The notes below the pieces were generated by a model. The model did not search any database. It was not told the origin of the DNA and worked only from the letters and a program-made list of their open reading frames with translations. Shown piece by piece: positions 1 through 23,491 of a stretch of 64,000 bases of DNA (the stretch's first letter is position 1; each line of letters opens with the position of its first letter). This DNA is from Pseudomonadota bacterium. GTDB taxonomy: Bacteria > Pseudomonadota > Alphaproteobacteria > Puniceispirillales > Marisalimonadaceae. The stretch is from assembly GCA_027625145.1 (NCBI GenBank), contig JAQBXK010000006.1:24260-88259 (forward strand). Reading direction: 5' to 3'. The translations under genes were made by a program, and so were the position numbers.

Positions 1-1775
1 ATATTTTTCGTGGACATGACAATGTTCAAGGTGCAACAGATATGTGTATTTTATCTCACTCATTGCCAGGTTATTATGGATTAGCAGCAGGTTCGTGGAA
101 ACATTGGGCCCGTGTATGGGAAGAAGATTATGATTGGTTAAAGGCAAGATTTGCATCTATAAAAGGAAAAGATGGAAAGACAAAAAGCCTTATGAATGTT
201 AAAGGAATACCTGTTTCAAGATGGATTGATGGTGTTTTAGAAGATAAAGCAAACATCGAGCAACCTGATAATCTAAGAGCTATGGTATTCTGGGGACATG
301 CACCAAACTCTCAAACAAGAATGAAAGAGATGAAAGTCGCTATGGAGAAGTTAGACCTAATGGTTGTAATTGATCCATATCCAACTGTTTCAGCGGTTTT
401 ATCTGATAAGACAGATGGGGTGTATTTGTTGCCTTCAACTACTCAGTTTGAGACATATGGTTCAGTAACAGCTTCAAACAGATCTCTTCAATGGAGAGAA
501 AAAGTAATTGATCCTTCATTTGATTCACTTCCTGACCAAACTATCATGTACAAGTTTGCAAAAAAGTTTGGTTTTGCAGATCGTATGTTTAGAAAAATAA
601 AGATAAATGAAGTAACATACGCAAATAAAGGTACAAAAAGAGAAGGGGTAAAAACTCATGAGGAACCTTTAATTGAAGACATTACAAGAGAGTTTAATGG
701 TGGAATGTGGACTATTGGTTATACTGGTCAGTCACCAGAGAGACTTAAAGCTCATATGAAAAACCAACATGTTTTTGATAGAACTACTCTTAAAGCAGTA
801 GGTGGAGAGCTTGATGGTGAGTATTATGGTCTTCCTTGGCCTTGTTGGGGAACTGCTGATATGAAACATCCAGGTACTCCTCTATTATATGACACATCAA
901 AGCCAGTAGCTGAAGGTGGACTTTGTTTTAGAGCTAGATTTGGAGTGGAACATGAAGGTAACAATTTGTTAGCTGAAGGTTCATATCCAGTAGGATCTGA
1001 AATCAAAGATGGTTATCCTCAATTTACAATGGCAATGCTTAAAAAACTTGGATGGGACAAAGATCTAACAGCCAAGGAAAAAGAAGCTATTGATAAAGTA
1101 GGTGGAGATAAAGCAAACTGGAAGGTAGATTTATCAGGTGGAATTCAAAGGGTTGCAATTAAGCACGGTTGTGCGCCTTTTGGAAATGCTAAAGCAAGGG
1201 TTAAAGTTTGGACATTCCCAGACCCAATTCCATTGCATAGAGAGCCATTATACACTTCTCGTAGAGATCTAGTAGCAGACTATCCAACTTATTCGGATAG
1301 AATGGCATATAGACTTCCTACAATGTATAAGTCTATTCAAGATGTTGATCATACCGCAAAATATCCTCTTATTTTAACTTCTGGAAGATTAGTTGAATAT
1401 GAGGGTGGTGGAGATGAGACTAGATCAAATCCATGGCTTGCTGAATTGCAACAAGATATGTTTGTAGAAATAAGCACATTTGATGCAAATTCAAAAGGTA
1501 TAAGAAATGGAGCAATGGTATGGGTTGCAACACCTGAGGGAGCTCGGATTAAAGTGATGGCGCAAGTTACTGAAAGAGTTGCAAAAGGAGTAGCATTCTT
1601 ACCTTTCCATTTTGGAGGTCATATGGAAGGAAAAGATCTGCGATCTAAGTATCCAGTGGGTTCAGATCCATATGTATTAGGGGAATCAGCAAATACAGCT
1701 TTTACATACGGATATGACGTTGTAACACAGATGCAAGAGACTAAGTGCTCATTGTGTCAAATTGAACTAGCTTAA
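1..1775 (+). CDS. fdhA: Formate dehydrogenase catalytic (alpha) subunit, molybdopterin/tungstopterin oxidoreductase; partial, 5' end outside window
   Basis: The frame is open from nt 3 (IFRGHDNVQGATD...), so the start lies upstream of the window. FdnG-like C-terminal motifs are present (MVVIDPYPT, ILTSGRLVEYEGGG, FLPFHFGG, YDVVTQMQETK). fdhB, fdhC and fdhD follow. Confidence 0.9.
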   Translation, partial: IFRGHDNVQGATDMCILSHSLPGYYGLAAGSWKHWARVWEEDYDWLKARFASIKGKDGKTKSLMNVKGIPVSRWIDGVLEDKANIEQPDNLRAMVFWGHAPNSQTRMKEMKVAMEKLDLMVVIDPYPTVSAVLSDKTDGVYLLPSTTQFETYGSVTASNRSLQWREKVIDPSFDSLPDQTIMYKFAKKFGFADRMFRKIKINEVTYANKGTKREGVKTHEEPLIEDITREFNGGMWTIGYTGQSPERLKAHMKNQHVFDRTTLKAVGGELDGEYYGLPWPCWGTADMKHPGTPLLYDTSKPVAEGGLCFRARFGVEHEGNNLLAEGSYPVGSEIKDGYPQFTMAMLKKLGWDKDLTAKEKEAIDKVGGDKANWKVDLSGGIQRVAIKHGCAPFGNAKARVKVWTFPDPIPLHREPLYTSRRDLVADYPTYSDRMAYRLPTMYKSIQDVDHTAKYPLILTSGRLVEYEGGGDETRSNPWLAELQQDMFVEISTFDANSKGIRNGAMVWVATPEGARIKVMAQVTERVAKGVAFLPFHFGGHMEGKDLRSKYPVGSDPYVLGESANTAFTYGYDVVTQMQETKCSLCQIELA

Positions 1776-1787
1776 GGGAGGCGTAAA

Positions 1788-2378
1788 ATGGCACGAATGA
1801 AATTCTTATGCGACGCAGAAAGATGTATCGAGTGTAACGCTTGTGTAACGGCATGTAAAAACGAGCATGAAGTTCCATGGGGAATTAACAGAAGAAGAGT
1901 TGTAACTATTCAGGATGGTAAACCTGGTGAAAGGTCAATCTCAGTGGCGTGTATGCATTGTTCAGATGCACCATGTATGGCTGTATGTCCAGTAGACTGT
2001 TTTTACCAAACTGAGCAAGGTGTAGTTCTTCACTCTAAAGATCTATGTATAGGTTGTGGATATTGCTTTTATGCATGTCCATTTGGAGCGCCTCAGTATC
2101 CACAAGCAGGAAACTATGGTTCAAGAGGAAAGATGGATAAATGTACTTTTTGTGCAGGTGGTCCAGAAACAGATATGTCTGACTCTGAATTCCAAAAATA
2201 TGGCCGTAACAGATTAGCAGAAGGTAAGTTACCAGTATGTGCAGAAATGTGTTCTACAAAAGCACTTTTAGCAGGTGATGGTGATGAAGTTGCTAACATT
2301 TTCAGAGAAAGAGTTGTCGCACGCGGATTTGGCTCTGGAGCTTGGGGATGGGGAACAGCATACCAATTAAAAAGCTAA
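1788..2378 (+). CDS. fdhB: Formate dehydrogenase iron-sulfur (beta) subunit, 4x[4Fe-4S] ferredoxin type, no membrane anchor
   Basis: Four Cys clusters are present (CIECNACVTAC, CMHCSDAPCMAVCP, CIGCGYCFYACP, CTFC...CAEMC). The protein is 196 aa with no C-terminal TM helix, as in Wolinella-type FdhB. A GGGAGG Shine-Dalgarno (SD) sequence sits just upstream. Confidence 0.9.
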   Translation: MARMKFLCDAERCIECNACVTACKNEHEVPWGINRRRVVTIQDGKPGERSISVACMHCSDAPCMAVCPVDCFYQTEQGVVLHSKDLCIGCGYCFYACPFGAPQYPQAGNYGSRGKMDKCTFCAGGPETDMSDSEFQKYGRNRLAEGKLPVCAEMCSTKALLAGDGDEVANIFRERVVARGFGSGAWGWGTAYQLKS

Positions 2379-2387
2379 ATTAGTTTT

Positions 2388-2422
2388 AAAAAAGGCGGGA
2401 CATAGAATTCCCGCCTTTTTTT
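2388..2422 (+). terminator. Rho-independent terminator-like hairpin between fdhB and the downstream lipoprotein/fdhC genes
   Basis: AAAAAAGGCGGGA-cataga at-TCCCGCCTTTTTTT. The GC-rich 7-bp core stem (2394-2400 / 2409-2415) is flanked by an A-run and a 7-T run. It is conspicuous in an AT-rich background. Confidence 0.8.
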
Positions 2423-2459
2423 ATATTCTATATATACTTAGATTAAAATTGGGGTGAAA

Positions 2460-2660
2460 ATGATAATAAGATTTTATAAAAATCTATTAATAGTGTTGTT
2501 TATAATGAGCACATTTTTAATAAGCTCATGTAGAGAAGATGAGCAAAACAGAGTATTGAATTATAATAAAGGTGTATATCTTGGAGAAAAAGATACCCAA
2601 CTTACAGAGCAACAAATAACAAAATTAAGAATACATACATCTAGACAAAAAAGTAATTAA
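2460..2660 (+). CDS. Small predicted lipoprotein (66 aa from the ATG; the track starts at GTG 2454), unknown function
   Basis: The signal peptide ends in the lipobox-like ISSC (Cys codon 2529-2531). A GGGGTG SD-like sequence lies 5 nt before ATG 2460. The mature part, about 43 aa, is hydrophilic. The gene sits between fdhB and fdhC. Confidence 0.55.
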   Translation: MIIRFYKNLLIVLFIMSTFLISSCREDEQNRVLNYNKGVYLGEKDTQLTEQQITKLRIHTSRQKSN

Positions 2661-2690
2661 TATTTCAAATTTTGTTAGGAGAAAATTAAA

Positions 2691-3728
2691 ATGTTAAAAA
2701 AAATAACAGCTGTAATAATGATGGTATTTATTTTAAATACAATAATTATATCAAATTCAAATACCTCTTTAGCACAGTCTAAAGGAGAAGTTCCTGGTAA
2801 ATCATTAGGAATAAAATCCGATACGGATTTATGGAGATACGTTCGTAATGGTAATGCTGGTACAACACAAATGAAAGATGAGCTTTCAGCAGTGATGATT
2901 CAATCAGAAGGTGATAATTGGAGAGCACTAAGAAATGGTCCAGTCTCAATGTTTGGAGGAATAGGATTAGCAGTAATAATTGCATTACTATTTGCATTTT
3001 ATTTATATAGAGGAAAAATTAAAGTTGAATCAGGATTATCTGGTGACACTATACTACGATTTGCAACATTAGATAGGTTTGCACACTGGTTAATGGCAGG
3101 TTCATTTGTTTTATTAGCTCTTACAGGTTTGAATATACTGTACGGCAGGTACATTTTGATACCTATTTTAGGGCCTGAATTATTTAGTTCAATAACAGTT
3201 GGAGGAAAATATATACATAATTATTTATCCTTTGCGTTTATGACTGGTTTAGCTTTAGCCTTTATACTATGGGTTAAACATAATATTCCTACAAAAATAG
3301 ACTGGCAATGGTTAAAAATGGGTGGTGGAATATTTAAAGCAGGAATGCATCCTCCAGCTAAAAAATTTAATGCAGGTCAAAAGATGATTTTTTGGATCAC
3401 AATGATAGGAGGCTTATCAGTTAGTATGTCAGGCATTGCTCTTATGTTCCCATTTGAGACAAGTATGTTTTCGGAAACTTTTGCATTGCTAAATATATTT
3501 GGTTTAGACCTTCCAACAAATTTAACTGCAATGCAAGAACAACAGTATAATCAATTATGGCATGGAGTTGTTTCATTAGGGTTAATGATAATGATAATTG
3601 CTCATATTTACATTGGTTCTGTAGGAATGGAAGGTGCACTTGATGCAATGAACAGTGGAAAAGTAGATAGAAACTGGGCAAAAGAACACCATAATTTATG
3701 GGTAAAAGAAGAAGACGAAAAATCATAA
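2691..3728 (+). CDS. fdhC: Formate dehydrogenase gamma subunit (membrane di-heme cytochrome b) with N-terminal periplasmic domain
   Basis: It has a signal-like N-terminus and a conserved periplasmic segment (LWRYVRNG...MIQSEGDNWRALRNGP). Multiple TM helices with His residues follow (RFAHWLMAG, IHNY, VKHN, IAHIYIG). This matches the FDH-gamma architecture. Confidence 0.8.
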   Translation: MLKKITAVIMMVFILNTIIISNSNTSLAQSKGEVPGKSLGIKSDTDLWRYVRNGNAGTTQMKDELSAVMIQSEGDNWRALRNGPVSMFGGIGLAVIIALLFAFYLYRGKIKVESGLSGDTILRFATLDRFAHWLMAGSFVLLALTGLNILYGRYILIPILGPELFSSITVGGKYIHNYLSFAFMTGLALAFILWVKHNIPTKIDWQWLKMGGGIFKAGMHPPAKKFNAGQKMIFWITMIGGLSVSMSGIALMFPFETSMFSETFALLNIFGLDLPTNLTAMQEQQYNQLWHGVVSLGLMIMIIAHIYIGSVGMEGALDAMNSGKVDRNWAKEHHNLWVKEEDEKS

Positions 3729-3743
3729 TAACTTATAAATTGC

Positions 3744-5123
3744 ATGGTAAGAATCTATAAAAGTAAAATAATAATGATTTTTGGATTTGATTTTAAAAAA
3801 AGCATTAGGAATGTAATTATATTCCTAATGCCTTTATTTTTAATAAATACTAATGCAAGTGCAATAGAAAAATTAATTGCACATGGTGGTCCAGTAAAGG
3901 GATTGGCGGTTTCAAAAAATAAGGAATATATGGCGAGTGCAAGTTTTGATTATTCAGTGGTATTATGGGGATTAAACCCAATAGAAGAAAAAATGACATT
4001 AATTGGCCATGATGCAGCAGTTAATACAGTAAAATTCTCTCCTAGCAATAACACTTTAGCCTCGGGTGGTGACGATAATAAAATATTGCTTTGGCAACTT
4101 AAGTATCCAATAAAAAAAAATATTTCAATAGAACCTATCATCCTTGGTAAGCATAGAGGAAAAGTTGTTGACTTAGATTTTTCTAAAGATGGTAAATATT
4201 TACTCACAGCAAGTTGGGATGGAAGTATTGGTCTATGGGATATAATAAAAAGAAAAAATATTAAATTTATTAAAGGACATAAAGGGCCAGTATATTCGGT
4301 AAAATACTCCGAAGATAATAGTCAAATATATAGTTCAGGATACGACGGAGAAATAAGATTATGGAATGCTAAAAATGGAAACTTTATCCGACCTCTAGTA
4401 AAAAATGGTTGGGGCATATCAGTATTTGAAGTTAATGAAGAAAAAAATTTTATAGCTTACGGATCAACTGATGGTATTATCAAAGTTGTAAAACTTAATG
4501 AAGATAAAGAAATTCTTAAAATAGGGAATAATAGAACTCCTGTTTTATCTATGTATTATTTAAAAGAAAAAAATTTAATAAGTTTTGGAAATGCAAAAGG
4601 AAGAATGATAATACTTGATACTAATAGTTGGTCATTAGTAAGAGATTTTAATGCAGTAAATGGACCTATCTGGGATAGCATTTTATTTCCAGAAGATACA
4701 TCATTAATAGTAGCGGGATTAGATGACTTTTTAACTAGATGGGAAATATTTGATTTCCCACCTGAAATATTAGATAAACCAGGACCTGCAAGACGATTTA
4801 ACCCAGTAGAAGAAGTTAGCAATGGAGAAAAACAATTTGCTAGAAAATGTAGTGTTTGTCATACTTTAAACTCAGATGGGAAAAAAAGAGCAGGACCTAC
4901 ATTATATAAAGTATTTGGAAGGAAAGCAGGCACATTAAAAGGTTATAAATATTCAGAAGCATTATTAAAATCTAAAATTATTTGGAGTGAAAAAACAATA
5001 AATCAATTATTTCATGAAGGACCGAATAAAGTAACGCCAGGAACTAAGATGCCTATTCAAAAAATGAAAAGGTATGACGACAGAAAAGATCTTATTACGT
5101 TTTTAAAAGAAGCTACAAAGTAA
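3744..5123 (+). CDS. Secreted fusion protein: seven-blade WD40 beta-propeller plus C-terminal class I (mitochondrial/c2-like) cytochrome c domain
   Basis: The signal peptide has an NASA/IE cleavage-like site. Seven WD-like repeats end in LWGL, LWQL, LWDI, LWNA, VVKL, ILDT and RWEI. The C-terminus reads GEKQFARKCSVCHT...GPTLYKVFGRKAG...PGTKMP, with heme motif CSVCH at 4848-4862. The gene starts 15 nt after the fdhC stop. Confidence 0.8.
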   Translation: MVRIYKSKIIMIFGFDFKKSIRNVIIFLMPLFLINTNASAIEKLIAHGGPVKGLAVSKNKEYMASASFDYSVVLWGLNPIEEKMTLIGHDAAVNTVKFSPSNNTLASGGDDNKILLWQLKYPIKKNISIEPIILGKHRGKVVDLDFSKDGKYLLTASWDGSIGLWDIIKRKNIKFIKGHKGPVYSVKYSEDNSQIYSSGYDGEIRLWNAKNGNFIRPLVKNGWGISVFEVNEEKNFIAYGSTDGIIKVVKLNEDKEILKIGNNRTPVLSMYYLKEKNLISFGNAKGRMIILDTNSWSLVRDFNAVNGPIWDSILFPEDTSLIVAGLDDFLTRWEIFDFPPEILDKPGPARRFNPVEEVSNGEKQFARKCSVCHTLNSDGKKRAGPTLYKVFGRKAGTLKGYKYSEALLKSKIIWSEKTINQLFHEGPNKVTPGTKMPIQKMKRYDDRKDLITFLKEATK

Positions 5124-5147
5124 AATTAAATATAAAGGGAGACTATA

Positions 5148-5276
5148 ATGAAAATGGTATTAATAAGCGGATTATTTGGAATAATAGTGGGTGTTGGAGC
5201 TTACTACATATTAATGAGTTTAGGAATGGATACAGCAAGTGTTATGTCTAGTGTAAACGTAAGGCTAACAGACTAA
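5148..5276 (+). CDS. Unannotated 42-aa single-TM peptide (MKMVLISGLFGIIVGVGAYYILMSLGMDTASVMSSVNVRLTD)
   Basis: It is below the ORF-track size cutoff and I read it directly from the sequence. A strong SD, AAGGGAG (5135-5141), lies 6 nt before the ATG. The N-terminal half is hydrophobic and glycine-rich. It fills most of the 184-nt gap in an otherwise compact operon. Confidence 0.5.
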   Translation: MKMVLISGLFGIIVGVGAYYILMSLGMDTASVMSSVNVRLTD

Positions 5277-5307
5277 TTTCTAGTTAATAGAAAATGAAAA
5301 TTAATAA

Positions 5308-6024
5308 ATGAAAATAAAAGAAAAATATATAATAAAAATTTTAATATTAGTTTTCTCATTGTTATCATTTAATTTGGAAGCAAGTGATTCTTCTAATGTG
5401 TGGAATAATGCTTATAAATCAGTTGTTGTAGTTATGCCTACTTGGTCTGGTTATAGCAAGCCAGGTTTTGGTGCACCAAATGGTGTGGCACCTGCAGGTA
5501 CTGGGTTTTATATATCATTAAAAAATAATAAAAAAGTTAGTAATTATATAATTACAGCTGCTCATGTAATTAAAGAATCTAAAAATATAAAAATAAAAAA
5601 TTATCAAAATAAAATAGAGAAAGCAGAATTAATTATTGCTGATAAAAAGCGAGATATTGCAATATTGAAATCTAAAGTAAATGGTCAGGCAATTAAAATA
5701 TCATCCAAAAAAAATGAAATTGGAAATCATGTCTGTGTAATAGGCAATAGTTTTGGTTTAGGACCAAGCTTGTCTTGTGGTGTTATTTCAGCACAAAATA
5801 GACAAAATATAGGTTTTAATGAAATAGAAAATTTTATTCAAACAGATGCAGCTGTAAATCCTGGAGACTCAGGAGGCCCTCTATTAGATAATAATGGAGA
5901 ATTAATAGGTATGTTAGATGCTATCTTTACAAAAGAAGCTGATATTGACGCGGGAGTTAATTTTGCTATACACAATGATTTAATAAATGAATTTATTAAG
6001 CTAAATTTGCATTTGATAAAGTAG
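5308..6024 (+). CDS. Secreted trypsin-like (S1C/DegP-type protease domain) serine protease without PDZ domain
   Basis: It has a signal peptide. The catalytic triad context is TAAHV (His), RDIAIL (Asp) and NPGDSGGPL (Ser). The stop lies 7 nt before moeA. Confidence 0.8.
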   Translation: MKIKEKYIIKILILVFSLLSFNLEASDSSNVWNNAYKSVVVVMPTWSGYSKPGFGAPNGVAPAGTGFYISLKNNKKVSNYIITAAHVIKESKNIKIKNYQNKIEKAELIIADKKRDIAILKSKVNGQAIKISSKKNEIGNHVCVIGNSFGLGPSLSCGVISAQNRQNIGFNEIENFIQTDAAVNPGDSGGPLLDNNGELIGMLDAIFTKEADIDAGVNFAIHNDLINEFIKLNLHLIK

Positions 6025-6031
6025 AGTTGTA

Positions 6032-7261
6032 ATGGAGATAAAACCTACAAAATTAGAAACAGCAAAACAGGATCTATTAAAAAGTATAAATAGTATAGTT
6101 GATAGTGAAGAAATTTTAATAGAACATGCATTAGAACGAGTCGTTAAGACTGAAATTGTTAGTAATATTAATTTGCCTCAAACAGCAAACTCAGCAGTGG
6201 ATGGTTACGGAGTTTTAGCTGAAACATTACATAACAATCATAAAACTGAATTTGATATTGCTGGAATAGCAAAAGCAGGACATCCGTTAAATAAAATTAT
6301 AAAAAAAAATCAAACTGTAGAAATTTATACTGGAGCAGTAATGCCAAAAGGTATAGATGCAATTGCTATGCATGAAAAATGTAAAAGGTTTGGAAATAAA
6401 GTAATAATAAATGAAAATTTATTAAAATATCAAAATATGAGACCTGTAGGAGAAAACCTTAAAAAAGGCGAAGTAGTTGTAAAAAAAGGAAAATTAATAA
6501 ATCCTGCAGATATTGGCCAATTAGCTGCTTCAGGCAATAAGGCTGTGAAGGTTTATAAAAAAATAAATTTGTCAGTAATCTCAACAGGAGATGAATTAGT
6601 TGATACTTCTACTAATCAAATAAATGAAGGTCATATATTTGATTCTAATCGACCAATGCTGCTATCGTTATTCAACAAAAAATATATAAAATTATTTGAT
6701 ATGGGAATAGTTAAAGATAATAGAAAAGATTTAGCTAAAAAGTATGAAAAATGTTTGTCACAAAGTGATGTGGTGATTTCATCAGGAGGAGCTTCAGATG
6801 GTATAGAGGATCATACCCAAAGCGCATTAAAAGACATAGGAGCTAAATGTTTGGTTTGGCAGTTAGCAATGAAGCCAGGCAAACCAATGGCAGTAGGTAT
6901 AATTGAAGGTAAATTAATTTTTTGTTTACCCGGTAATCCGGTAGCTGCATTTGTTTGTGCAAAACTAATAATTAAACCTTTAATAAATAAATTAGCAGGC
7001 TGTGAAGATTTAGAAACATTTACGATAAAATTACCTTCAGGATTTGATCATAATAAAAGAATAGGAAGAGCTGAATATTTAAGGGCAAAAATTATAAATA
7101 ATGATAATGGATCATTTATAACTATACATGGTAGGAAGGGTGCTGGTGTTATTTCATCTTTAACAGGTGCAGATGGCTTAGTTGAAATTCCTCTAGAATG
7201 TGAAATTGTTAGAAAAGGAGATTTACTTAAATTTATTCCTTTTAATCACATAGGTTTATAA
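6032..7261 (+). CDS. moeA: Molybdopterin molybdenum/tungsten transferase MoeA
   Basis: It is 409 aa with MoeA-like motifs (SAVDGYG, ISTGDEL, SGGASDG, KPGKP, LPGNPVAA). Confidence 0.9.
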   Translation: MEIKPTKLETAKQDLLKSINSIVDSEEILIEHALERVVKTEIVSNINLPQTANSAVDGYGVLAETLHNNHKTEFDIAGIAKAGHPLNKIIKKNQTVEIYTGAVMPKGIDAIAMHEKCKRFGNKVIINENLLKYQNMRPVGENLKKGEVVVKKGKLINPADIGQLAASGNKAVKVYKKINLSVISTGDELVDTSTNQINEGHIFDSNRPMLLSLFNKKYIKLFDMGIVKDNRKDLAKKYEKCLSQSDVVISSGGASDGIEDHTQSALKDIGAKCLVWQLAMKPGKPMAVGIIEGKLIFCLPGNPVAAFVCAKLIIKPLINKLAGCEDLETFTIKLPSGFDHNKRIGRAEYLRAKIINNDNGSFITIHGRKGAGVISSLTGADGLVEIPLECEIVRKGDLLKFIPFNHIGL

Positions 7262-7266
7262 TTTAA

Positions 7267-7920
7267 TTAATTAGGTATTAAATTATTATCCCATTTAACA
7301 ATTACATTGAATGAAATTGAAATTCTAGGAAATTCAGACATGTTTGGATGAACTAAATGATGTATGAAGGCTGGCCATAATAATAAATCACCAGATTTAG
7401 GTAAAACTCTATGTTCTGGGTCGACTTGCTTATCACCTTTAATTGAATTCATATTAGCTTGTCCACGTGGGTCAAAAAAACTTATTGAAGCAGGATTTAA
7501 GTCAGATCTAAAAATTTCTGCATCAGATTGATCTGGGACATTCACATAATATGTACCAGACAACCATGAGTGAGGATGGTTGTGCAAATTATGATAATCA
7601 CCTTTCATATTAACATTTCCCCATCCTTGAATAGACCATCTTAATTCATAGGAAATTCCAGATTTTTGAGCATAATCAAATATTGCTTTATCAATACATT
7701 GTTTTAACCAAAACATCACAGGATGGTCCATATTAAGTATATTTTGAGCAATGTAATTTTCAGTCATGTTATCTTGAGAAATGTTATTTGACAAAACTAT
7801 TCCTGAAATAACAGGGTTAGCCGTTTCAAAGCCAGGTAAACTCATTTCTAAAAATTGAGTAGGCCAAAGATCTAAAAATTTTGGTTTGATAGAATTATTA
7901 TTTTTCACTCGTCTAACCAT
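7267..7920 (-). CDS. Putative 2OG-Fe(II) oxygenase-like protein (PF13759 / TIGR02466-like), function unknown
   Basis: Motifs HNHPHSWLSGTYYV and LLLWPAFIHHLVHPN...RISISFN resemble that family. It is the last gene of a co-oriented modE-like / fdhD / mobAB string. Confidence 0.6.
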   Translation of the reverse strand: MVRRVKNNNSIKPKFLDLWPTQFLEMSLPGFETANPVISGIVLSNNISQDNMTENYIAQNILNMDHPVMFWLKQCIDKAIFDYAQKSGISYELRWSIQGWGNVNMKGDYHNLHNHPHSWLSGTYYVNVPDQSDAEIFRSDLNPASISFFDPRGQANMNSIKGDKQVDPEHRVLPKSGDLLLWPAFIHHLVHPNMSEFPRISISFNVIVKWDNNLIPN

Positions 7921-7946
7921 TGTAAACTCCAGAATAAGGATTTGTT

Positions 7947-9080
7947 TTAAGTAATATTATATCGTTGAATAATAAAATCAGAAATTGAATTTATATTATT
8001 TAAATCAAAAGTAGGAATTGAAGATTCAATATTTATATCTGATGCTATGGCAAAAATATTATTATCCTCTTTATATAGCTCAGGTTTACCAATAATTGGC
8101 CTATAAACTTCAAATTTTGGTATAGGTTCATTTTTATAACCTTCTACTATAATTAGATCACATTTTTGGATAGGATCTTTTGAAAACATTTCTATCATTT
8201 GAAATAAACTTTTTTCATCATGTTCATCATTTTCTTGTATCATAGCAAATCGTTCTTTAGATGAGATTATCATTGGTCTAGCGCCAGCTTTTCTTAAATT
8301 AAAAGAATCTTTCCCAGGTTTATCAAGTTCAAATTTATGATGTGCATGTTTTAATGTGCCTATTGTTATTCCTATCTTTGTAAAGTTTTCAATTAGTTTA
8401 GTACATAAAGTAGTTTTCCCAGACCCTGACCAACCAGCTAATCCAAAAAACGGAGGTAGTTTACCAATAATCTGTTGAGCTTTAATGAGGTCTAATGGAG
8501 AGTTTAAATTAGTAAAAGGATCAAAATTTTCATTATTGATTTTATCAAAATCAACATAAGCTACTTTAAGATTAGAAGTAAAAATATCAATTTTTCTTAT
8601 ACCTTCATTTAATGCCTTTTCTAGTTTGAGGTTAAGATCAGATTTCCATAATGCTATGACTGGATGATTATAACCTTTCGATTGAGCAACAACTAAATCA
8701 ACATCTAATTCTTTGTTTTTTAATTTAATCATTTCTTTTACAATATTTTTAGGAAGAAACGGGGTATCACAGGGTAAGGTCATAACCCATTTTTGGTTTA
8801 ATTGACTAGCCCAATTTAAAGATGCTAATATTCCTGCCAATGGACCTAAGTGGCCTTTGATAGGATCTTCAATTATTTCATAACCGAATTCAGAAAACTT
8901 ATCTAAATTAGTATTAATATTTAATGCTATAGGTGCAACATGACCTGAAATACTTTCTAAAACGTAAGATAAAAGAGGACGATCTAGAAGAGGTATTAAA
9001 GCTTTATCTTTGCCACCCATTCTTCTACCTTTTCCTCCTGCTAAAATCACACATGGAACGATTTCATTTAAATTTTCCAA
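7947..9080 (-). CDS. mobA: Fused MobA (molybdenum cofactor guanylyltransferase) - MobB (GTP-binding adaptor) protein
   Basis: The N-terminal half carries VILAGGKGRRMGG.DKAL (MobA). The C-terminal half carries the P-loop GLAGWSGSGKTTL (MobB). One uninterrupted 377-aa ORF. Confidence 0.85.
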   Translation of the reverse strand: MENLNEIVPCVILAGGKGRRMGGKDKALIPLLDRPLLSYVLESISGHVAPIALNINTNLDKFSEFGYEIIEDPIKGHLGPLAGILASLNWASQLNQKWVMTLPCDTPFLPKNIVKEMIKLKNKELDVDLVVAQSKGYNHPVIALWKSDLNLKLEKALNEGIRKIDIFTSNLKVAYVDFDKINNENFDPFTNLNSPLDLIKAQQIIGKLPPFFGLAGWSGSGKTTLCTKLIENFTKIGITIGTLKHAHHKFELDKPGKDSFNLRKAGARPMIISSKERFAMIQENDEHDEKSLFQMIEMFSKDPIQKCDLIIVEGYKNEPIPKFEVYRPIIGKPELYKEDNNIFAIASDINIESSIPTFDLNNINSISDFIIQRYNIT

Positions 9081-9094
9081 ATTTTTTATTATCC

Positions 9095-9973
9095 CTAATT
9101 AATTATAGCTCTCTGTGCAGACATAATGTCATCATTTTTTATAGTTTTGGTATCTGTATCAAAAATAACTCTCTCAATGCCATTTGCTATAATCATTCTC
9201 TTCCCTTTAGCTCTGCCAATTAAGGTAAGGCCTGCATCTTTGGCAAGTTTTACTCCAGATTCTGTGAATCCAGATCTTGAAATGAGAATGGGTATTCCCA
9301 TTTGAGCAGTTTTAATAACCATTTCAGAGGTTAATCTTCCTGTAGTATAAAAAATTTTATCTTTTGATTCTTCTTTATTTAAAAACATCCATCCAGCAAT
9401 TTTATCCATTGCATTATGTCTACCTACATCTTCAACATATATTAAGGGAATATCATTTTTACATAATACACATCCATGAAGAGCTCCAGCTTTTAGATAA
9501 AGGCTTGGTCTAGTATTGACTTTCTTAGATATAGTATAGATCCATGAGGTTCTAATTTTAGCTTTTTTATTTAAGTTAATAGATGAAAAATCATCCATTA
9601 TATCTCCATAAACCGTACCAACAGCACATCCACTCGTACGTATTTTCTTTTCCATTTTCTTTTCATAATTAGTTTGTCTTTCAGTTCTTATAATTACGAC
9701 TTGTAAATCTTTATCATAATTAATCTCTGATATAACGTCGTCCTTTTTAAGCATGTTTTGATTTAACAAATAACCTACGGCCAAAAGATCAGGCATGTCG
9801 CCAAGTGTCATTGCAGTTACAATTTCTTGTTTATTAAGATAAATGGTTAAGGGTACTTCTTTTACAACAGGCAATTGAATGTGTTCACCTATTTCATTGA
9901 TGCAATCAATTGTTTCTGTGAGTTTGTCATTTTCTAAATCAGGTGAAATAAAAAATTCTTTTTTATCGTTCAT
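9095..9973 (-). CDS. fdhD: Formate dehydrogenase accessory sulfurtransferase FdhD
   Basis: It has the conserved DVGRHNAMDK motif, GRLTSEMV and ISRSG. It is 292 aa. Confidence 0.88.
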   Translation of the reverse strand: MNDKKEFFISPDLENDKLTETIDCINEIGEHIQLPVVKEVPLTIYLNKQEIVTAMTLGDMPDLLAVGYLLNQNMLKKDDVISEINYDKDLQVVIIRTERQTNYEKKMEKKIRTSGCAVGTVYGDIMDDFSSINLNKKAKIRTSWIYTISKKVNTRPSLYLKAGALHGCVLCKNDIPLIYVEDVGRHNAMDKIAGWMFLNKEESKDKIFYTTGRLTSEMVIKTAQMGIPILISRSGFTESGVKLAKDAGLTLIGRAKGKRMIIANGIERVIFDTDTKTIKNDDIMSAQRAIIN

Positions 9974-9985
9974 AATCTTTACCTA

Positions 9986-10378
9986 TTATTTAACAGATTG
10001 TTTAGATGCCGCCCAATTGATAAACTCTTCAGATTCTTTTGTTAAATGATCAGATAATACAAGGTACTTTTTTAAAAGCTCTTTTCCAAAAGAAGTAACA
10101 AGCGTTCCTTTATTACCTGGTTGTTTTTCTAAAATAGGATTTGGGAATGCTTCTTCAATTGTTTTTAAAAGAAGAGTAGCTCTCTTACTACTCATCCCCA
10201 TTGCTTTAGCGGCTGATCGAATTGAACCTTTTTCAGCAACTAAATGAAATAGTTCCATTTTACCTGCGCCTATCATATGACCTTGAATATACACTTTAAT
10301 TCTAATGCCATTTTCATTTTCATTAACTAACCTAGGTGGTAATGAAGAGCGCTTTATTTGTATTGACTTATTTTTCAT
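9986..10378 (-). CDS. ModE N-terminal-domain-like winged-helix regulator (no Mop molybdate-binding domains)
   Basis: It is 130 aa. The segment GAGKMELFHLVAEKGSIRSAAKAMGMSSKRATLLLKTIEEAF resembles the ModE/LysR-type HTH. The length leaves no room for a di-Mop domain. Confidence 0.65.
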   Translation of the reverse strand: MKNKSIQIKRSSLPPRLVNENENGIRIKVYIQGHMIGAGKMELFHLVAEKGSIRSAAKAMGMSSKRATLLLKTIEEAFPNPILEKQPGNKGTLVTSFGKELLKKYLVLSDHLTKESEEFINWAASKQSVK

Positions 10379-10437
10379 TAACTAATTATAGGATATAATG
10401 TTAAAATAAACCAAATATTTTTAAAAAGAATTTTTGT

Positions 10438-11307
10438 ATGTCTGATTATTTTACAACTGAAGAATTGGCTGATTTTCTTAGAGTTAAGGCAAGAAAAATT
10501 TATGACATGGTTTCTAAAGAAGAAGTTCCTCATTCAAAAGTAATGGGAAAATTATTATTTTCTAAAATTGAAATATCAAACTGGATATCAGGTTCTCGAC
10601 ATCAAAGTTTAGATGATCAGACAGTCCCAATGGTTTTGTTAGGAAGTCATGATCCTTTATTAGAGCTAGCAGTAAAAAAATCACAATCTGGGATTGCAAT
10701 GTCGTTTGATGGAAGTACTCAAGGAATAGATAGGCTTAAGTTGAACGAAGGATTTGCTTCTGGGTTACATCTATATGATTATCAAAAAGATATATGGAAC
10801 ATTCCTATAATTAATGCAAAATTATCAAACAAACCTATTGTTTTAGTAGAATGGGCAAAAAGAGAAAGAGGTTTAATCTTTAAAAATGATAATTACATTA
10901 AAAATAATTCTATAGAAAACTTTAAAGGGAAAAAACTAGTAAGGAGACAAGCTGGATCAGGTGCTGAAAAATATTTACAATATATGTTAAATGCTAAAAA
11001 TCTAAATTACGATGATTTTGATAGAACAGATATTGCTTATTCAGAAAATGATGCAGTTCTCCTTATTTTATCTAATCAAGCTGATGTCACGCTTGGATTA
11101 AGATCTGAAGCTAAAAAATATAATCTAAGCTTTATTCCTATTGTTACTGAAAGATTTGATCTGGTAGTTAATAGAAAGTTTTGGTTTGAAAAGCCTTTTC
11201 AAGATCTATTAAATTTTTGTAAAACAAAGGACTTTAAGGAAATAGCTTCTAATTTAGATGGATACGATATTCGTGATTTTGGAAAAGTACACTTTAATAG
11301 CAAATAG
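10438..11307 (+). CDS. Putative regulator: excisionase/MerR-type HTH fused to a periplasmic-binding-protein-like (PBP-like) domain
   Basis: The N-terminus, FTTEELADFLRVKARKIYDMVSKEEVPHSKVMGKLLFSKIEISNWI, looks like an excisionase-family HTH. The remaining 230 aa or so resemble a type-2 PBP fold (LLGSHDP..., RQAGSGAE). It is divergent from the modE-like gene. Confidence 0.6.
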   Translation: MSDYFTTEELADFLRVKARKIYDMVSKEEVPHSKVMGKLLFSKIEISNWISGSRHQSLDDQTVPMVLLGSHDPLLELAVKKSQSGIAMSFDGSTQGIDRLKLNEGFASGLHLYDYQKDIWNIPIINAKLSNKPIVLVEWAKRERGLIFKNDNYIKNNSIENFKGKKLVRRQAGSGAEKYLQYMLNAKNLNYDDFDRTDIAYSENDAVLLILSNQADVTLGLRSEAKKYNLSFIPIVTERFDLVVNRKFWFEKPFQDLLNFCKTKDFKEIASNLDGYDIRDFGKVHFNSK

Positions 11308-11316
11308 AGGTTAAAA

Positions 11317-11421
11317 ATGCTTAAAGAAATTGGGATGGCGTTGCTTGGAATAGCTATAATCTTAACATTATTTTTTTTCTTTTTAGGTTCCAAGGTTTTT
11401 ATTTTAACGTCTTTTTATTAA
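11317..11421 (+). CDS. Unannotated 34-aa hydrophobic peptide (MLKEIGMALLGIAIILTLFFFFLGSKVFILTSFY)
   Basis: I read it directly from the sequence. An AGAGG SD (11306-11310) lies 6 nt before the ATG. It has a single TM-like stretch. Its stop overlaps the SD of the next gene. Confidence 0.4.
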   Translation: MLKEIGMALLGIAIILTLFFFFLGSKVFILTSFY

Positions 11422-22193: not shown

Positions 22194-22679
22194 ATGGGAA
22201 GTGCTATGATAGATACTATTGATCAAAAGATACTTGTTTTAATACAAAAAAATGCTGGGTTACCGCTTTCTGAAATTTCTAAAAGAGTCGGAATCTCTCC
22301 CACTCCATGCTGGAATAGAATTAAGAAGATGGAAGAGAGGGGAGTTATATCTGCAAGAACTATTGTTTTAAACAGAAAGGCGATTAATCTTCCCGTGCTT
22401 GTTTTCTTGTCTATACAGGTAGCCCATCATTCTGGAGATTGGATTTCAGAATTGCAGAATGTTGTTGATAAATATGACCAGATTATTGAGGCTCATAGAT
22501 TAACAGGATCAGATGCTGATTATCTTTTAAAAGTTGTAGCTTCTAGTATTGAGGATTATGACAATTTCCAACAAAAATTAATTGGAGAATTGGAGTTTGC
22601 AAAAATGTCTTCAAGTATTTCTCTGCAAGAAATGAAAGTCTCTCATGTTTTGCCATTAAGTCAATGTGCGGTTAATTAA
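22194..22679 (+). CDS. Lrp/AsnC-family transcriptional regulator
   Basis: It has an HTH (LDxxDxKIL-type: IDQKILVLIQKNAGLPLSEISKRVGISPTPCWNRIKKMEERGVI) and a RAM/ASNC domain. The start may instead be ATG 22206. Confidence 0.85.
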   Translation: MGSAMIDTIDQKILVLIQKNAGLPLSEISKRVGISPTPCWNRIKKMEERGVISARTIVLNRKAINLPVLVFLSIQVAHHSGDWISELQNVVDKYDQIIEAHRLTGSDADYLLKVVASSIEDYDNFQQKLIGELEFAKMSSSISLQEMKVSHVLPLSQCAVN

Positions 22680-23491
22680 TTTGCATTTGGATAAAATAAA
22701 TATTCGTCTTTTATTTTAAAATTTCTAATAGTATTTTGTCCTTTTTTTGATAAAAGCCAATTTATAAATTTTATGCTATTATTAACTTTTACATTTGGGC
22801 ATCTTTTAGGGTTAACCAATGTAATTCCATACTGATTGAATAATATTTCATTATTTTCAGTTACAATAAATAAATCTAATTTGTTTTGAAAATTAATCCA
22901 TGTAGCCCTATCGGTTAAAGTGTAGGCCGCCATTCCTGCGGCTAAGTTAAGTGTTGCTCCCATGCCGGAACCAGTTTCTCTATACCATTTTCCAGAGAAT
23001 TTTTTAGGATTTAAATTAGATATATTCCAAATTACATTTTCTTTAGAGTGAGTGCCGGATTCATCTCCTCTAGATGAAAAAAAAGATTGGGTATTATATA
23101 TTTTTGTAAAAGCCTTCACCGGGCCATCTGTTTTATTTATTTTAGCAGGGTTTTTTTTTGGTCCAACTATAATAAAATCGTTATACATTAAATTATATCG
23201 TTTTACTCCGAACCCTTTCCTTACAAAATTTAATTCTCGTTCTTTTGAATGAACAATAAGTATATCTCCATCACAGTTAGCGGCATTTTTAAGTGCTGCT
23301 CCAGTACCAACAGAGACAACGTTTGCTGTAATATTTATTTCTTTCTTTATAATAGGAAGAATATAATCATAAAATCCAGAATTATAGGTAGAGGTTGTTG
23401 ATTGGACTAATATAGAGTTGTCTGCAATTACAGTTTTTGTGAAAAATAACAGGCAGATAATAAATATATAAAATTCTTTCATTAGCTTCAC
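22676..23491 (-). CDS. tupA: Tungstate ABC transporter substrate-binding protein TupA-like
   Basis: It has a signal peptide and an anion-binding segment, VQSTTSTYNSG, resembling the TupA TTTS motif. It is paired divergently with clear tupB and tupC genes. Confidence 0.75.
   Translation of the reverse strand: MKLMKEFYIFIICLLFFTKTVIADNSILVQSTTSTYNSGFYDYILPIIKKEINITANVVSVGTGAALKNAANCDGDILIVHSKERELNFVRKGFGVKRYNLMYNDFIIVGPKKNPAKINKTDGPVKAFTKIYNTQSFFSSRGDESGTHSKENVIWNISNLNPKKFSGKWYRETGSGMGATLNLAAGMAAYTLTDRATWINFQNKLDLFIVTENNEILFNQYGITLVNPKRCPNVKVNNSIKFINWLLSKKGQNTIRNFKIKDEYLFYPNAN

What the first reader, a model, noticed from the sequence alone, without database searches (positions are those of the whole stretch)
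1..11421. FDH island carrying six unassigned accessory genes: candidate undescribed periplasmic formate-oxidation module
The recognisable core is fdhA-fdhB, fdhC, moeA, mobA-mobB and fdhD. Six other genes are wedged into the same tightly spaced transcription units, with gaps of 5-31 nt.

The extra genes are a small lipoprotein, a WD40-cytochrome c fusion, a 42-aa TM peptide, a PDZ-less S1 protease, a PF13759-like oxygenase, and a ModE-N-only regulator paired with an HTH-PBP regulator. None belongs to the textbook FDH-N/O or Wolinella fdh operons as I know them.

In a genome this compact, co-transcription of so many secreted or membrane accessory proteins with a respiratory enzyme suggests one functional unit. 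It could cover electron output to cytochrome c, assembly or quality control, and metal sensing, rather than being random insertions.
Basis: partly seen in the sequence, partly recalled or inferred. Interest (0 to 1): 0.72.

Follow-up and report, generated by a model that had tools for sequence, protein, structure and literature searches.

The report
Periplasmic formate dehydrogenase with unrecognised partner genes
This is a periplasmic FDH3-type formate dehydrogenase gene cluster, and three of its unnamed neighbours (a 42-residue membrane peptide, a WD40-cytochrome c fusion and a tiny lipoprotein) sit beside this enzyme in many other bacteria, so they are probably undescribed parts of it.

Summary
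The enzyme is the FDH3 type: Tat-exported, with a cysteine active site, known genetically from Methylobacterium.

I compared 80 species that carry FDH3. In the 75 loci with enough sequence downstream of fdhC:
- the 42-aa membrane peptide is present in 65, always directly after fdhC or after the WD40-cytochrome c gene;
- the WD40-cytochrome c fusion is present in 47;
- the PDZ-less protease is present in 11;
- the PF13759 oxygenase is present in 7.

Across all 80 loci, the small lipoprotein lies between fdhB and fdhC in 28, and the ModE-N regulator occurs in 4.

Reverse checks agree. Homologues of the fusion (8 of 8), the peptide (3 of 3) and the lipoprotein (3 of 3) all lie inside FDH3 loci. 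All three are annotated only as "hypothetical" or "c-type cytochrome", and the peptide and lipoprotein have no Pfam family.

The protease, oxygenase and ModE-N regulator are linked to FDH3 only within one marine clade. The HTH-PBP regulator recurs in FDH3 islands beside a tungstate-type transporter.

A conserved terminator-like hairpin follows fdhB, so the cluster is not one simple transcript. The nearest genomes are labelled SAR116, not Pelagibacter.

Verdict: partly supported; a new variant of a known enzyme system.

The parts
3..1775 (+). fdhA, C-terminal 590 residues of the catalytic Mo/W-bis-PGD subunit. It is cut by the window start; the full length on the contig is 979 aa.
   Evidence: Pfam Molybdopterin and Molydop_binding. 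On L001 the full gene carries the Tat motif DRRAFLKG and the active-site motif RICHS, which is the cysteine type.
1788..2378 (+). fdhB, four-cluster Fe-S subunit of the FDH3 type, with no membrane anchor.
   Evidence: NCBIfam NF038355 FDH3_beta scores 343 bits against a cut-off of 240. It is 87-96% identical in 80 other species.
2388..2421 (+). Terminator-like GC-rich hairpin plus T-run between fdhB and the downstream genes.
   Evidence: By position, a comparable hairpin follows fdhB in 28 of 80 loci, against 0 of 75 after fdhA and 5 of 76 after fdhC.
2460..2660 (+). Small lipoprotein of 66 aa (mature form about 43 aa). It has a lipobox cysteine followed by the conserved motif EEQxRxLxYxKGxYxG.
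   Evidence: Found in 28 of 80 FDH3 loci, always between fdhB and fdhC. The profile search found 415 protein clusters, all 'hypothetical' with no Pfam family. Context look-ups were 3 of 3 in FDH3 loci.
2691..3728 (+). fdhC, the membrane cytochrome b subunit. It has an N-terminal signal or TM segment, a periplasmic segment and one extra TM helix ahead of the four-helix core.
   Evidence: TIGR01583 scores 139 bits against a cut-off of 115.85, and Pfam Ni_hydr_CYTB matches.
3744..5123 (+). Periplasmic WD40 seven-bladed propeller fused to a class I (c2/c550-like) cytochrome c domain. The probable start is at 3774.
   Evidence: with haem motif CSVCH. In the AF2 model the propeller has pLDDT above 90. 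It lies directly downstream of fdhC in 47 of 75 loci. CxxCH is kept in 51 of 55 homologues. Eight of 8 plasmid homologues lie in FDH3 islands. A split form exists in L179.
5148..5276 (+). 42-aa single-pass membrane peptide with a conserved C-terminal V-R-L motif.
   Evidence: A Shine-Dalgarno sequence AGGGAG lies 7 nt upstream. Found in 65 of 75 FDH3 loci, always next to fdhC or the WD40-cytochrome c gene. The profile search found 742 clusters, all 'hypothetical' with no Pfam family. Context look-ups were 3 of 3.
5308..6024 (+). Secreted HtrA-like serine protease that lacks a PDZ domain.
   Evidence: Trypsin_2 scores 82 bits, and the match covers only positions 60-224 of the 434-position DegP model. 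The His, Asp and Ser catalytic residues are invariant. Found in 11 of 80 loci, always after the WD40-cytochrome c and peptide genes. The reverse test gave 24 of 28.
6032..7261 (+). moeA, which inserts Mo or W into molybdopterin.
   Evidence: NCBIfam MoeA scores 360 bits.
7267..7920 (-). PF13759/TIGR02466 2OG-Fe(II)-oxygenase-like protein, cytoplasmic. It is the last gene of the minus-strand unit.
   Evidence: Found in 7 of 80 loci, all in the window's clade, including GC-60% relatives L009 and L011.
7947..9080 (-). mobA-mobB fusion, which makes the guanine dinucleotide form of the cofactor.
   Evidence: NCBIfam MobA/MobB scores 238 bits.
9095..9973 (-). fdhD, the sulfurtransferase needed for FDH activity.
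   Evidence: TIGR00129 scores 139 bits against a cut-off of 140.9, and NF001943 scores 150 bits.
9986..10378 (-). ModE N-terminal-like HTH regulator without a Mop (molybdate-binding) domain.
   Evidence: HTH_1 scores 31 bits. TIGR00637 scores 48.5 bits, below its cut-off of 98.5. Found in 4 of 80 loci.
10438..11307 (+). HTH_17 + PBP_like regulator, a putative oxyanion (Mo/W) sensor.
   Evidence: PBP_like scores 142 bits and HTH_17 scores 35 bits. Orthologues at 33-39% identity lie in the Sagittula and Sinorhizobium FDH3 islands next to an ABC transporter. In L096 the orthologue directly follows the 42-aa peptide gene.
22676..25014 (.). TupABC-like oxyanion ABC transporter, outside the finding. 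In other species the same type sits beside the HTH-PBP regulator within FDH3 islands.
   Evidence: TupA-like 225 bits and TupB-like 193 bits, both below the equivalog cut-offs. The binding protein is 50% identical to the one in the L096 island.

Best explanation
The island encodes an FDH3-type periplasmic formate dehydrogenase, together with its cofactor-maturation genes and a set of dedicated, so far undescribed, extracytoplasmic partners.

Shown by sequence:
- FdhA has a Tat signal and a Cys-His active site. With FdhB (four Fe-S clusters, no anchor) it is exported and pairs with FdhC, a membrane cytochrome b.
- The cytoplasmic genes moeA, mobAB and fdhD make and sulfurate the Mo/W-bis-PGD cofactor.

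Shown by comparative genomics:
- A 42-aa single-pass peptide (N-terminal helix, conserved C-terminal VRL tail) accompanies fdhC in about 87% of FDH3 loci.
- A Sec-exported WD40-cytochrome c accompanies it in about 63%.
- A lipoprotein of about 43 mature residues accompanies it in about 35%.
- None of the three was found outside FDH3 loci in any locus examined.

Inferred:
- The peptide and the lipoprotein are small membrane-tethered subunits or assembly factors of the FdhABC complex. The VRL tail is equally conserved where the WD40 protein is absent, so its partner is FdhC or FdhAB rather than the propeller.
- The WD40-cytochrome c is an optional periplasmic electron-output or docking module. 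It would pass formate electrons to c-type acceptors or an oxidase, in parallel with the cytochrome b to quinone route.
- The HtrA-like protease is a clade-specific quality-control or maturation protease acting on this periplasmic assembly.
- The HTH-PBP protein is a Mo/W oxyanion-responsive regulator.
- The hairpin after fdhB lowers expression of the downstream genes relative to fdhAB.
- PF13759 and ModE-N are lineage-specific additions of unknown role.
For: Enzyme type: FDH3_beta 343 bits, TIGR01583 and TIGR02811, plus Tat and RICHS motifs.

Synteny in divergent relatives while the flanking genes differ.

Counts over 80 species: peptide 65 of 75, WD40-cytochrome c 47 of 75, lipoprotein 28 of 80, protease 11 of 75, PF13759 7 of 75, ModE-N 4 of 80.

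The peptide alignment spans genomes with about 31-72% GC and keeps V-R-L. A Shine-Dalgarno sequence precedes it.

Reverse tests:
- WD40-cytochrome c homologues in 8 genera, 8 of 8 in FDH3 islands.
- Peptide 3 of 3.
- Lipoprotein 3 of 3.
- Protease at 46% identity or more, 24 of 28.

Other support:
- The haem motif is kept in 51 of 55 WD40-cytochrome c homologues.
- In L179 the WD40 and cytochrome c parts are separate genes in an FDH3 locus.
- Signal peptides or anchors are present on all four extracytoplasmic proteins.
- The hairpin is enriched after fdhB.
- The HTH-PBP regulator sits next to a TupA-like transporter in FDH3 islands.
Against: - There is no biochemical or expression evidence of any kind. 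Association is inferred from gene position only.
- The WD40-cytochrome c is missing from 37% of loci, including all 6 gammaproteobacterial ones, so FDH3 works without it.
- The lipoprotein is absent from nearly all Rhodobacterales (1 of 38).
- In several Rhodospirillales-type loci and in Bradyrhizobium the peptide gene is on the opposite strand, so it is not always co-transcribed.
- A close protease paralogue lies in an unrelated protease cluster.
- The cytochrome c domain of the AF2 model is low-confidence, so no geometry can be argued.
- The 80 loci are the best FdhB matches out of at least 599, not a random sample.
Confidence: 0.55

Rival explanations
1. Only the three small or periplasmic genes (peptide, WD40-cytochrome c, lipoprotein) are true FDH3 partners. 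The protease, PF13759 oxygenase and ModE-N regulator are lineage-specific neighbours kept together by inheritance within one clade, with no direct role in formate oxidation.
For: - Protease 11 of 80, PF13759 7 of 80 and ModE-N 4 of 80, all within or near the clade with the highest FdhB identity.
- Distant homologues of the protease and PF13759 are generic and scattered.
- A protease paralogue at 47-52% identity sits with a subtilase instead.
- PF13759 is on the opposite strand.
Against: - The protease keeps the same position, directly after the peptide gene on the same strand, in genomes ranging from 31% to 64% GC. This includes Hwanghaeella and Stappia, where it retains a PDZ domain.
- 24 of 28 metagenomic protease orthologues follow a WD40-cytochrome c gene.
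- PF13759 stays adjacent in GC-60% relatives even though moeA is not there.
Confidence: 0.3
2. The WD40-cytochrome c is not an electron carrier for formate oxidation. It is instead a scaffold, redox sensor or assembly factor whose haem reports or protects rather than conducts.
For: - FDH3 loci without it are common (28 of 75), and all keep the cytochrome b subunit, which is sufficient for a quinone route.
- WD40 propellers are typically interaction platforms (one search returned only generic WD40 structures).
- In Roseobacters it is followed by sigma-54 regulators and Cache-domain kinases.
Against: - The haem-binding motif and a c2/c550-like domain are conserved.
- In L179 a stand-alone cytochrome c replaces the fused domain, as expected for a redox partner.
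- Dedicated cytochrome c subunits of periplasmic FDHs are established in Desulfovibrio (own knowledge).
Confidence: 0.2
3. The 42-aa peptide is a regulatory or biogenesis factor rather than a structural subunit. Examples would be a small membrane protein that modulates a sensor kinase, or Tat/haem insertion.
For: - In Roseobacters it is immediately followed by a sigma-54 response regulator, or by the HTH-PBP regulator.
- In several lineages it is transcribed convergently to fdhC.
Against: - It is present in lineages with no nearby kinase or regulator, such as Marinobacter, Pseudomaricurvus and the window's clade.
- Its position next to fdhC is the only invariant feature.
Confidence: 0.25

Closest known systems
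FDH3 of Methylobacterium/Methylorubrum extorquens (fdh3DABC; NCBIfam NF038355 FDH3_beta)
   Same: - Same enzyme type. The beta subunit scores above the curated cut-off.
- Tat-exported alpha, cytochrome b gamma and a small TAT protein.
- Described as periplasmic (PMC12180729).
- A Methylobacterium bullatum locus also carries the WD40-cytochrome c next to the large 4Fe-4S gene.
   Different: - The literature I could read treats it as a three- or four-gene enzyme.
- The 42-aa peptide, WD40-cytochrome c and lipoprotein are not mentioned, and databases name them 'hypothetical' or 'c-type cytochrome'.
- The original 2004 and 2007 papers were not available.
The fer4-DUF3305-DUF3306-TorD/DmsD-fdhTAT-fdhGHI operon type described by Bay et al. 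2015 (PMC4464133)
   Same: The upstream half of the island on the contig matches it: 4Fe-4S protein, DUF3305, DUF3306, chaperone, TAT protein and fdhABC.
   Different: That study stops at fdhI. None of the downstream accessory genes is described.
E. coli FDH-N/FDH-O (FdnGHI/FdoGHI)
   Same: A periplasmic alpha-beta module on a dihaem cytochrome b, giving a redox loop to quinone. FdhD is required.
   Different: - Here the active site has cysteine rather than selenocysteine.
- The beta subunit is short and has no C-terminal membrane helix. TIGR01582 scores only 59 bits against a cut-off of 335.
- The gamma subunit has an N-terminal periplasmic extension.
- Extra small membrane proteins and a cytochrome c are present.
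Desulfovibrio FdhABC3 (periplasmic FDH with a dedicated c-type cytochrome subunit)
   Same: A periplasmic FdhAB is encoded next to a dedicated c-type cytochrome that takes its electrons (own knowledge, not tested here).
   Different: - That cytochrome is a tetrahaem c3. Here it is a single class I haem domain fused to a WD40 propeller.
- A cytochrome b subunit is also present here.
Small single-helix subunits of respiratory enzymes (NapE/TorE, CydX, CcoQ)
   Same: Proteins of about 40-60 aa with one TM helix, encoded in the enzyme's operon and long overlooked (own knowledge).
   Different: No sequence relationship. No Pfam family matches, even at E < 5.
HTH_17 + PBP_like regulators (TunR-type tungstate/molybdate-responsive regulators of sulfate reducers, recalled from Kazakov et al. 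2013)
   Same: Same two-domain architecture. In relatives it sits next to a TupA-like transporter.
   Different: - Ligand and target genes are untested.
- I could not retrieve the paper, so the comparison rests on memory.

Membership tests
FDH3-type periplasmic formate dehydrogenase | Beta subunit matches NCBIfam NF038355 above its curated cut-off. | tested here: met
   343.1 bits against a cut-off of 240.
FDH3-type periplasmic formate dehydrogenase | Alpha subunit is a Tat-exported Mo/W-bis-PGD protein with a Cys/Sec-His active-site pair. | tested here: met
   On L001 the full gene has Molybdop_Fe4S4, Molybdopterin and Molydop_binding domains, plus DRRAFLKG and RICHS. Only the C-terminal 590 aa lie in the window. 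No NCBIfam FDH-alpha equivalog reaches its cut-off (TIGR01591 scores 458 against 666).
FDH3-type periplasmic formate dehydrogenase | Cytochrome b gamma subunit. | tested here: met
   TIGR01583 scores 139 against a cut-off of 115.85, and Pfam Ni_hydr_CYTB scores 75 bits.
FDH3-type periplasmic formate dehydrogenase | Formate-oxidising activity in the periplasm. | not testable with these tools
   Needs enzyme assays. It is inferred from homology and from Methylobacterium genetics (PMC12180729).
E. coli-type FDH-N/O | Selenocysteine active site, beta subunit with a C-terminal TM anchor, and a FdnI-type gamma subunit. | tested here: not met
   The active site has Cys. TIGR01582 scores 58.6 against 334.7, and NF007558 scores 77 against 339. 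FdhB has no hydrophobic segment.
Class I c-type cytochrome (C-terminal domain of the fusion) | CxxCH haem-attachment motif and a distal Met in a c2/c550-like fold. | tested here: met
   CSVCH and TKMP are invariant in alignment A3. The CycA model scores 58 bits, below its full-protein cut-off. Actual haem attachment is untested.
WD40 beta-propeller | Repeated WD40 units forming a closed propeller. | tested here: met
   Pfam WD40 scores 128 bits against a cut-off of 27. The AF2 model has 28 strands forming 7 blades, with pLDDT above 90.
HtrA/DegP family | Trypsin-like domain with a His-Asp-Ser triad. | tested here: met
   Trypsin_2 scores 82 bits. H86, D116 and S188 are invariant in alignment A2.
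HtrA/DegP family | At least one C-terminal PDZ domain. | tested here: not met
   The protein is 238 aa and matches only positions 60-224 of the 434-position DegP model. Orthologues in L018 and L021 do carry a PDZ-like extension.
ModE | N-terminal HTH plus a C-terminal di-Mop molybdate-binding domain. | tested here: not met
   The protein is 130 aa with an HTH only. TIGR00637 scores 48.5 against 98.5, and the full ModE model scores 16.9 against 369.
HTH_17 + PBP_like (TunR-like) oxyanion regulators | Excisionase-type HTH fused to a PF12727 binding domain. | tested here: met
   PF12728 scores 35 bits and PF12727 scores 142 bits.
HTH_17 + PBP_like (TunR-like) oxyanion regulators | Binds tungstate or molybdate and controls transporter or enzyme genes. 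| not testable with these tools
   Only adjacency to TupA-like transporters in relatives supports this. In the window the transporter is 11 kb away.
PF13759 / TIGR02466 | Matches both models above their cut-offs. | tested here: met
   PF13759 scores 85.4 against 27, and TIGR02466 scores 78.4 against 62.5. The family has no known function.

The most novel reading that the evidence does not exclude
FDH3 is not a three-subunit enzyme. It is a larger periplasmic and membrane assembly in which the universal 42-aa peptide, through its invariant C-terminal VRL tail, and the small lipoprotein hold FdhAB on the cytochrome b. The WD40-cytochrome c then gives a direct route from formate to cytochrome c to oxidase, bypassing the quinone pool and the bc1 complex. 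A dedicated protease would control the assembly. This would be a previously undescribed respiratory architecture, widespread in marine Alpha- and Gammaproteobacteria.
Probability: 0.2. Interest if true: 0.72.

Novelty: new variant of a known kind. Interest (0 to 1): 0.56.

Why it matters
- **Spread of the enzyme.** FDH3-type enzymes occur in at least 599 species-level genomes, including abundant marine groups, methylotrophs and rhizobia. The enzyme has never been purified to my knowledge, and it is annotated as three genes.
- **Direct candidates for missing subunits.** A 42-aa membrane peptide, a WD40-cytochrome c and a mini-lipoprotein travel with it almost everywhere and nowhere else. That makes them candidates for missing subunits and for the enzyme's electron exit.
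- **Energy yield.** The electron exit determines how much energy these bacteria gain from formate and one-carbon compounds in the ocean.
- **Annotation.** The analysis defines two new small-protein families that annotation pipelines currently miss or call hypothetical.
- **Testability.** Concrete mutants can be made in culturable carriers such as Sagittula, Sinorhizobium and Methylorubrum.

Tried and rejected
- **RNA elements.** An Rfam gathering-threshold scan (which would include any Moco riboswitch) and a tRNA scan of the whole window found nothing.
- **Plasmid tblastn.** Searches with the protease and with PF13759 returned only generic DegQ-like and TIGR02466 genes in unrelated contexts.
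- **PDB sequence search.** The WD40-cytochrome c returned only generic WD40 proteins. No solved structure shows this architecture.
- **AF2 model.** The propeller is confident but the cytochrome domain is poor (pLDDT 30-58). I drew no domain-geometry conclusion and skipped the fold search.
- **Lipoprotein fused to FdhC.** I tested whether the lipoprotein motif is fused into the longer FdhC of Roseobacters. It is not.
- **WD40 propeller binding the peptide's VRL tail.** I rejected this as the main role of the tail, because the motif is equally conserved in loci without the WD40 gene.
- **Conserved block between the two regulators.** It is best read as overlapping -10 boxes, not an operator.
- **Literature.** Searches for TunR and for the original FDH3 papers failed. 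Searches combining FDH3, WD40 and cytochrome c found nothing relevant.
- **First profile script.** It timed out and was rerun with faster settings.

Full report
**1. What is in the window**

- Plus strand: fdhA (C-terminal 590 aa, cut by the window start), fdhB, a 66-aa lipoprotein, fdhC, a WD40 + cytochrome c fusion, a 42-aa single-helix peptide, a 238-aa trypsin-like protease without PDZ, and moeA.
- Minus strand, convergent with these: a PF13759/TIGR02466 protein, mobA-mobB, fdhD and a 130-aa ModE-N-like HTH protein.
- Divergent from that unit: an HTH_17 + PBP_like regulator.

Most gaps are 5-31 nt, as stated. The exceptions are an 81-nt gap after fdhB and a 59-nt divergent promoter region. 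The 81-nt gap holds a strong terminator-like hairpin at 2388-2421.

The lipoprotein, the fusion, the peptide and the protease all carry a signal peptide or anchor. PF13759 and both regulators do not.

**2. The island is larger than the window shows, and the enzyme has a name**

The same contig is public (ENA, MEHR18-1 scaffold_369). Upstream of the window it carries DUF6352, a 675-aa 4Fe-4S protein on the other strand, DUF3305, DUF3306, a TorD-like chaperone, a 62-aa TAT protein (TIGR02811) and the full 979-aa fdhA.

- FdhA has a twin-arginine motif and an active-site RICHS, so it is a cysteine-type, Tat-exported enzyme.
- FdhB scores 343 bits on NCBIfam FDH3_beta against a cut-off of 240.
- FdhC passes TIGR01583.

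This is the FDH3 type known from Methylobacterium, where it is described as a periplasmic fdh3DABC (PMC12180729). The upstream half matches the fer4-DUF3305-DUF3306-chaperone-TAT-fdhGHI operon type noted by Bay et al. 2015 (PMC4464133).

It does not meet the E. coli FDH-N/O definitions. It has no selenocysteine, its beta subunit has no anchor helix, and the equivalog scores are far below their cut-offs.

**3. Is the arrangement unique?**

No. A relative whose WD40-cytochrome c is only 63% identical has the same gene order from DUF6352 to the HTH-PBP regulator, while the genes beyond that differ.

A scan of one genome per species with FdhB found at least 599 relatives. I kept the best 80, which share 87-96% FdhB identity. 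They comprise Rhodobacterales, Rhodospirillales-like genomes, Hyphomicrobiales, six Gammaproteobacteria and a low-GC marine group.

The closest are single-cell genomes labelled SAR116 cluster, not Pelagibacter. Cultured SAR11 Ia is described with a cytoplasmic fdhF/fdsB enzyme (PMC3160333). I could not place the window taxonomically beyond 'marine alphaproteobacterial MAG'.

**4. Forward test: given FDH3, are the accessory genes there?**

I used tblastn and iterated profiles on all ORFs of the 80 loci.

| Gene | Loci with the gene |
|---|---|
| FdhC | 80 of 80 |
| TorD-like chaperone | 73 of 80 |
| DUF3306 | 67 of 80 |
| DUF3305 | 66 of 80 |
| 4Fe-4S protein | 58 of 80 |
| Small lipoprotein (always between fdhB and fdhC) | 28 of 80 |
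| HTH-PBP regulator | 7 of 80 |
| ModE-N regulator | 4 of 80 |
| 42-aa peptide | 65 of 75 |
| WD40-cytochrome c | 47 of 75 |
| Protease | 11 of 75 |
| PF13759 | 7 of 75 |

The denominator of 75 counts the loci with at least 1.8 kb of sequence downstream of fdhC.

- The peptide always lies directly after the WD40-cytochrome c gene, or directly after fdhC where that gene is absent. In some Rhodospirillales-type loci it is on the opposite strand but still adjacent.
- All six gammaproteobacterial loci have the peptide and none has the WD40-cytochrome c.
- The peptide alignment keeps an N-terminal helix and a C-terminal V-R-L across genomes of about 31-72% GC. That is protein-level conservation.
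- In the window the peptide gene has a good Shine-Dalgarno sequence.
- The lipoprotein keeps its lipobox cysteine and an EEQxRxLxYxKGxYxG motif.
- The haem motif is present in 51 of 55 WD40-cytochrome c homologues. The other four are cut by a contig end, have a longer C-terminal tail, or (L017) lack the cytochrome domain.

**5. Reverse test: given the accessory gene, is FDH3 there?**

- **WD40-cytochrome c.** Full-length homologues on plasmids or chromids occur in Sagittula, Salipiger, Alloyangia, Sulfitobacter, Tateyamaria, Sinorhizobium, Bradyrhizobium and Methylobacterium. All eight I inspected are inside an FDH3 island. In Roseobacters the gene follows fdhC. In Hyphomicrobiales it lies beside the large 4Fe-4S gene, upstream of the operon.
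- **Peptide.** A profile search gave 742 protein clusters, all 'hypothetical' with no Pfam family. Three look-ups, including a Cellvibrionales genome, all fell next to fdhC.
- **Lipoprotein.** A profile search gave 415 clusters, all 'hypothetical'. Three look-ups all fell between fdhB and fdhC.
- **Split form.** In one of those loci (L179) the WD40 part and the cytochrome c part are separate genes within the FDH3 locus. This split form supports a shared function for the two domains.
- **Protease.** I scanned metagenome contigs with an alignment of island proteases. Among loci with enough upstream sequence, 24 of 28 with at least 46% identity follow a WD40-cytochrome c gene. Only 3 of 21 below that identity do. 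The exceptions I inspected are a paralogue beside a subtilase.
- **Orthologues with a PDZ domain.** The protease orthologues in Hwanghaeella and Stappia keep a PDZ domain, so the PDZ-less state is derived.
- **Generic homologues.** Plasmid homologues of the protease and of PF13759 are generic.

**6. Regulators and metal supply**

The HTH-PBP regulator has orthologues at 33-39% identity in the Sagittula and Sinorhizobium FDH3 islands. In several Roseobacters the regulator lies next to an ABC transporter whose binding protein is TupA-like.

The window carries the same kind of transporter 11 kb away, at 22676-25014. Its binding protein is 50% identical to the island-linked one.

The architecture matches what I recall of TunR-type tungstate-responsive regulators, but I could not retrieve that paper. 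The ModE-N protein lacks any Mop domain and is confined to the window's clade.

**7. Transcript structure**

A GC-rich hairpin followed by a T-run sits right after fdhB in the window and in relatives whose sequence there is unrelated.

With a strict perfect-stem rule it is found after fdhB in 28 of 80 loci. The comparison values are 0 of 75 after fdhA and 5 of 76 after fdhC.

The downstream accessory genes are therefore probably expressed by read-through at a lower level than fdhAB, or separately. The cofactor genes form their own minus-strand unit. 'One transcription unit' is too simple.

**8. How it most likely works**

Shown:
- The enzyme type, the export signals and the cofactor pathway genes.
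- The strict positional association of the peptide, the WD40-cytochrome c and the lipoprotein with FDH3.

Inferred:
- FdhAB docks on the cytochrome b FdhC and feeds quinone.
- The peptide and lipoprotein are small membrane-tethered subunits or assembly factors. FdhB lacks the anchor helix that FDH-N has.
- The peptide's VRL tail is conserved whether or not the WD40 protein is present, so its partner is FdhC or FdhAB.
- The WD40-cytochrome c is an optional periplasmic electron exit or docking module.
- The protease is a clade-specific quality-control factor.
- The HTH-PBP protein senses Mo or W.
- PF13759 has no assignable role.

The AF2 model gives a confident seven-bladed propeller but an unreliable cytochrome domain. 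No solved structure has this architecture, so no geometric argument is possible.

**9. Novelty and score**

- The enzyme family and its upstream accessory genes are known.
- I found no description, in the searchable literature or in database names, of the downstream trio as FDH3 components.
- This is a new variant of a known kind: a known enzyme with undescribed, widely conserved partner genes.
- It is testable in culturable carriers.
- All evidence is positional, and the sample of 80 loci is the top slice by FdhB similarity.
- I score interest at 0.56.

Noticed in passing
window 2388-2421; also L002, L008-L016, L022, L032 and L068, just after fdhB: A terminator-like hairpin directly after fdhB is conserved in position but not in sequence across distant genomes. 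It occurs in 28 of 80 loci after fdhB, against 0 of 75 after fdhA. This suggests built-in differential expression of fdhAB versus the downstream genes.
   Followed up: partly
window 22676-25014: A TupABC-like oxyanion ABC transporter. Its binding protein scores 225 bits on the TupA model and is 50% identical to the transporter that sits beside the HTH-PBP regulator inside Roseobacter FDH3 islands. The enzyme may use tungsten or molybdenum supplied by it.
   Followed up: partly
L001 1-4084 (same contig, upstream of the window); also L007, L088, L177: FDH3 islands carry further uncharacterised genes: a 650-690-aa cytoplasmic 4Fe-4S protein, DUF3305, DUF3306, DUF6352 and, in other species, DUF6505, DUF6494 and a biotin/lipoate-ligase-like protein. 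Their role with a periplasmic enzyme is unexplained.
   Followed up: no
L179 7652-9165: Here the WD40 propeller (318 aa) and the cytochrome c (136 aa) are separate genes in an FDH3 locus. The 40-aa peptide gene lies between them on the minus strand.
   Followed up: yes
L178 7538-7990; L179 7257-7619: A further conserved periplasmic protein of 120-150 aa, with no Pfam match on record, lies between fdhC and the WD40 gene in some Rhodospirillales-type loci. It is not present in the window.
   Followed up: no
L122 3032-6088; L133 7989-11065: A paralogue of the PDZ-less protease (47-52% identical) occurs without FDH3. It sits beside a subtilase and a second trypsin-like protein.
   Followed up: partly
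L018 7148-8119; L021 10997-11938: The island protease orthologues in Hwanghaeella and Stappia retain a C-terminal PDZ-like extension. The PDZ-less form in the window is therefore a secondary reduction.
   Followed up: partly
L006, L090, L091, L092, L095: In Roseobacters the peptide gene is followed by a sigma-54-dependent response regulator, and often by a Cache-domain sensor kinase. This suggests FDH3 expression there is under two-component control.
   Followed up: no
protein cluster of window 3744-5123: The 90%-identity cluster holding the WD40-cytochrome c also lists 56-aa Conus conotoxin precursors as members. This looks like a clustering artefact of the database.
   Followed up: no
window 7267-7920: The PF13759 protein is more conserved than its neighbours: 84-88% identity where the WD40-cytochrome c is 70-79%. 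Its 90% cluster has 1461 members, so it is under strong constraint despite having no known function.
   Followed up: no
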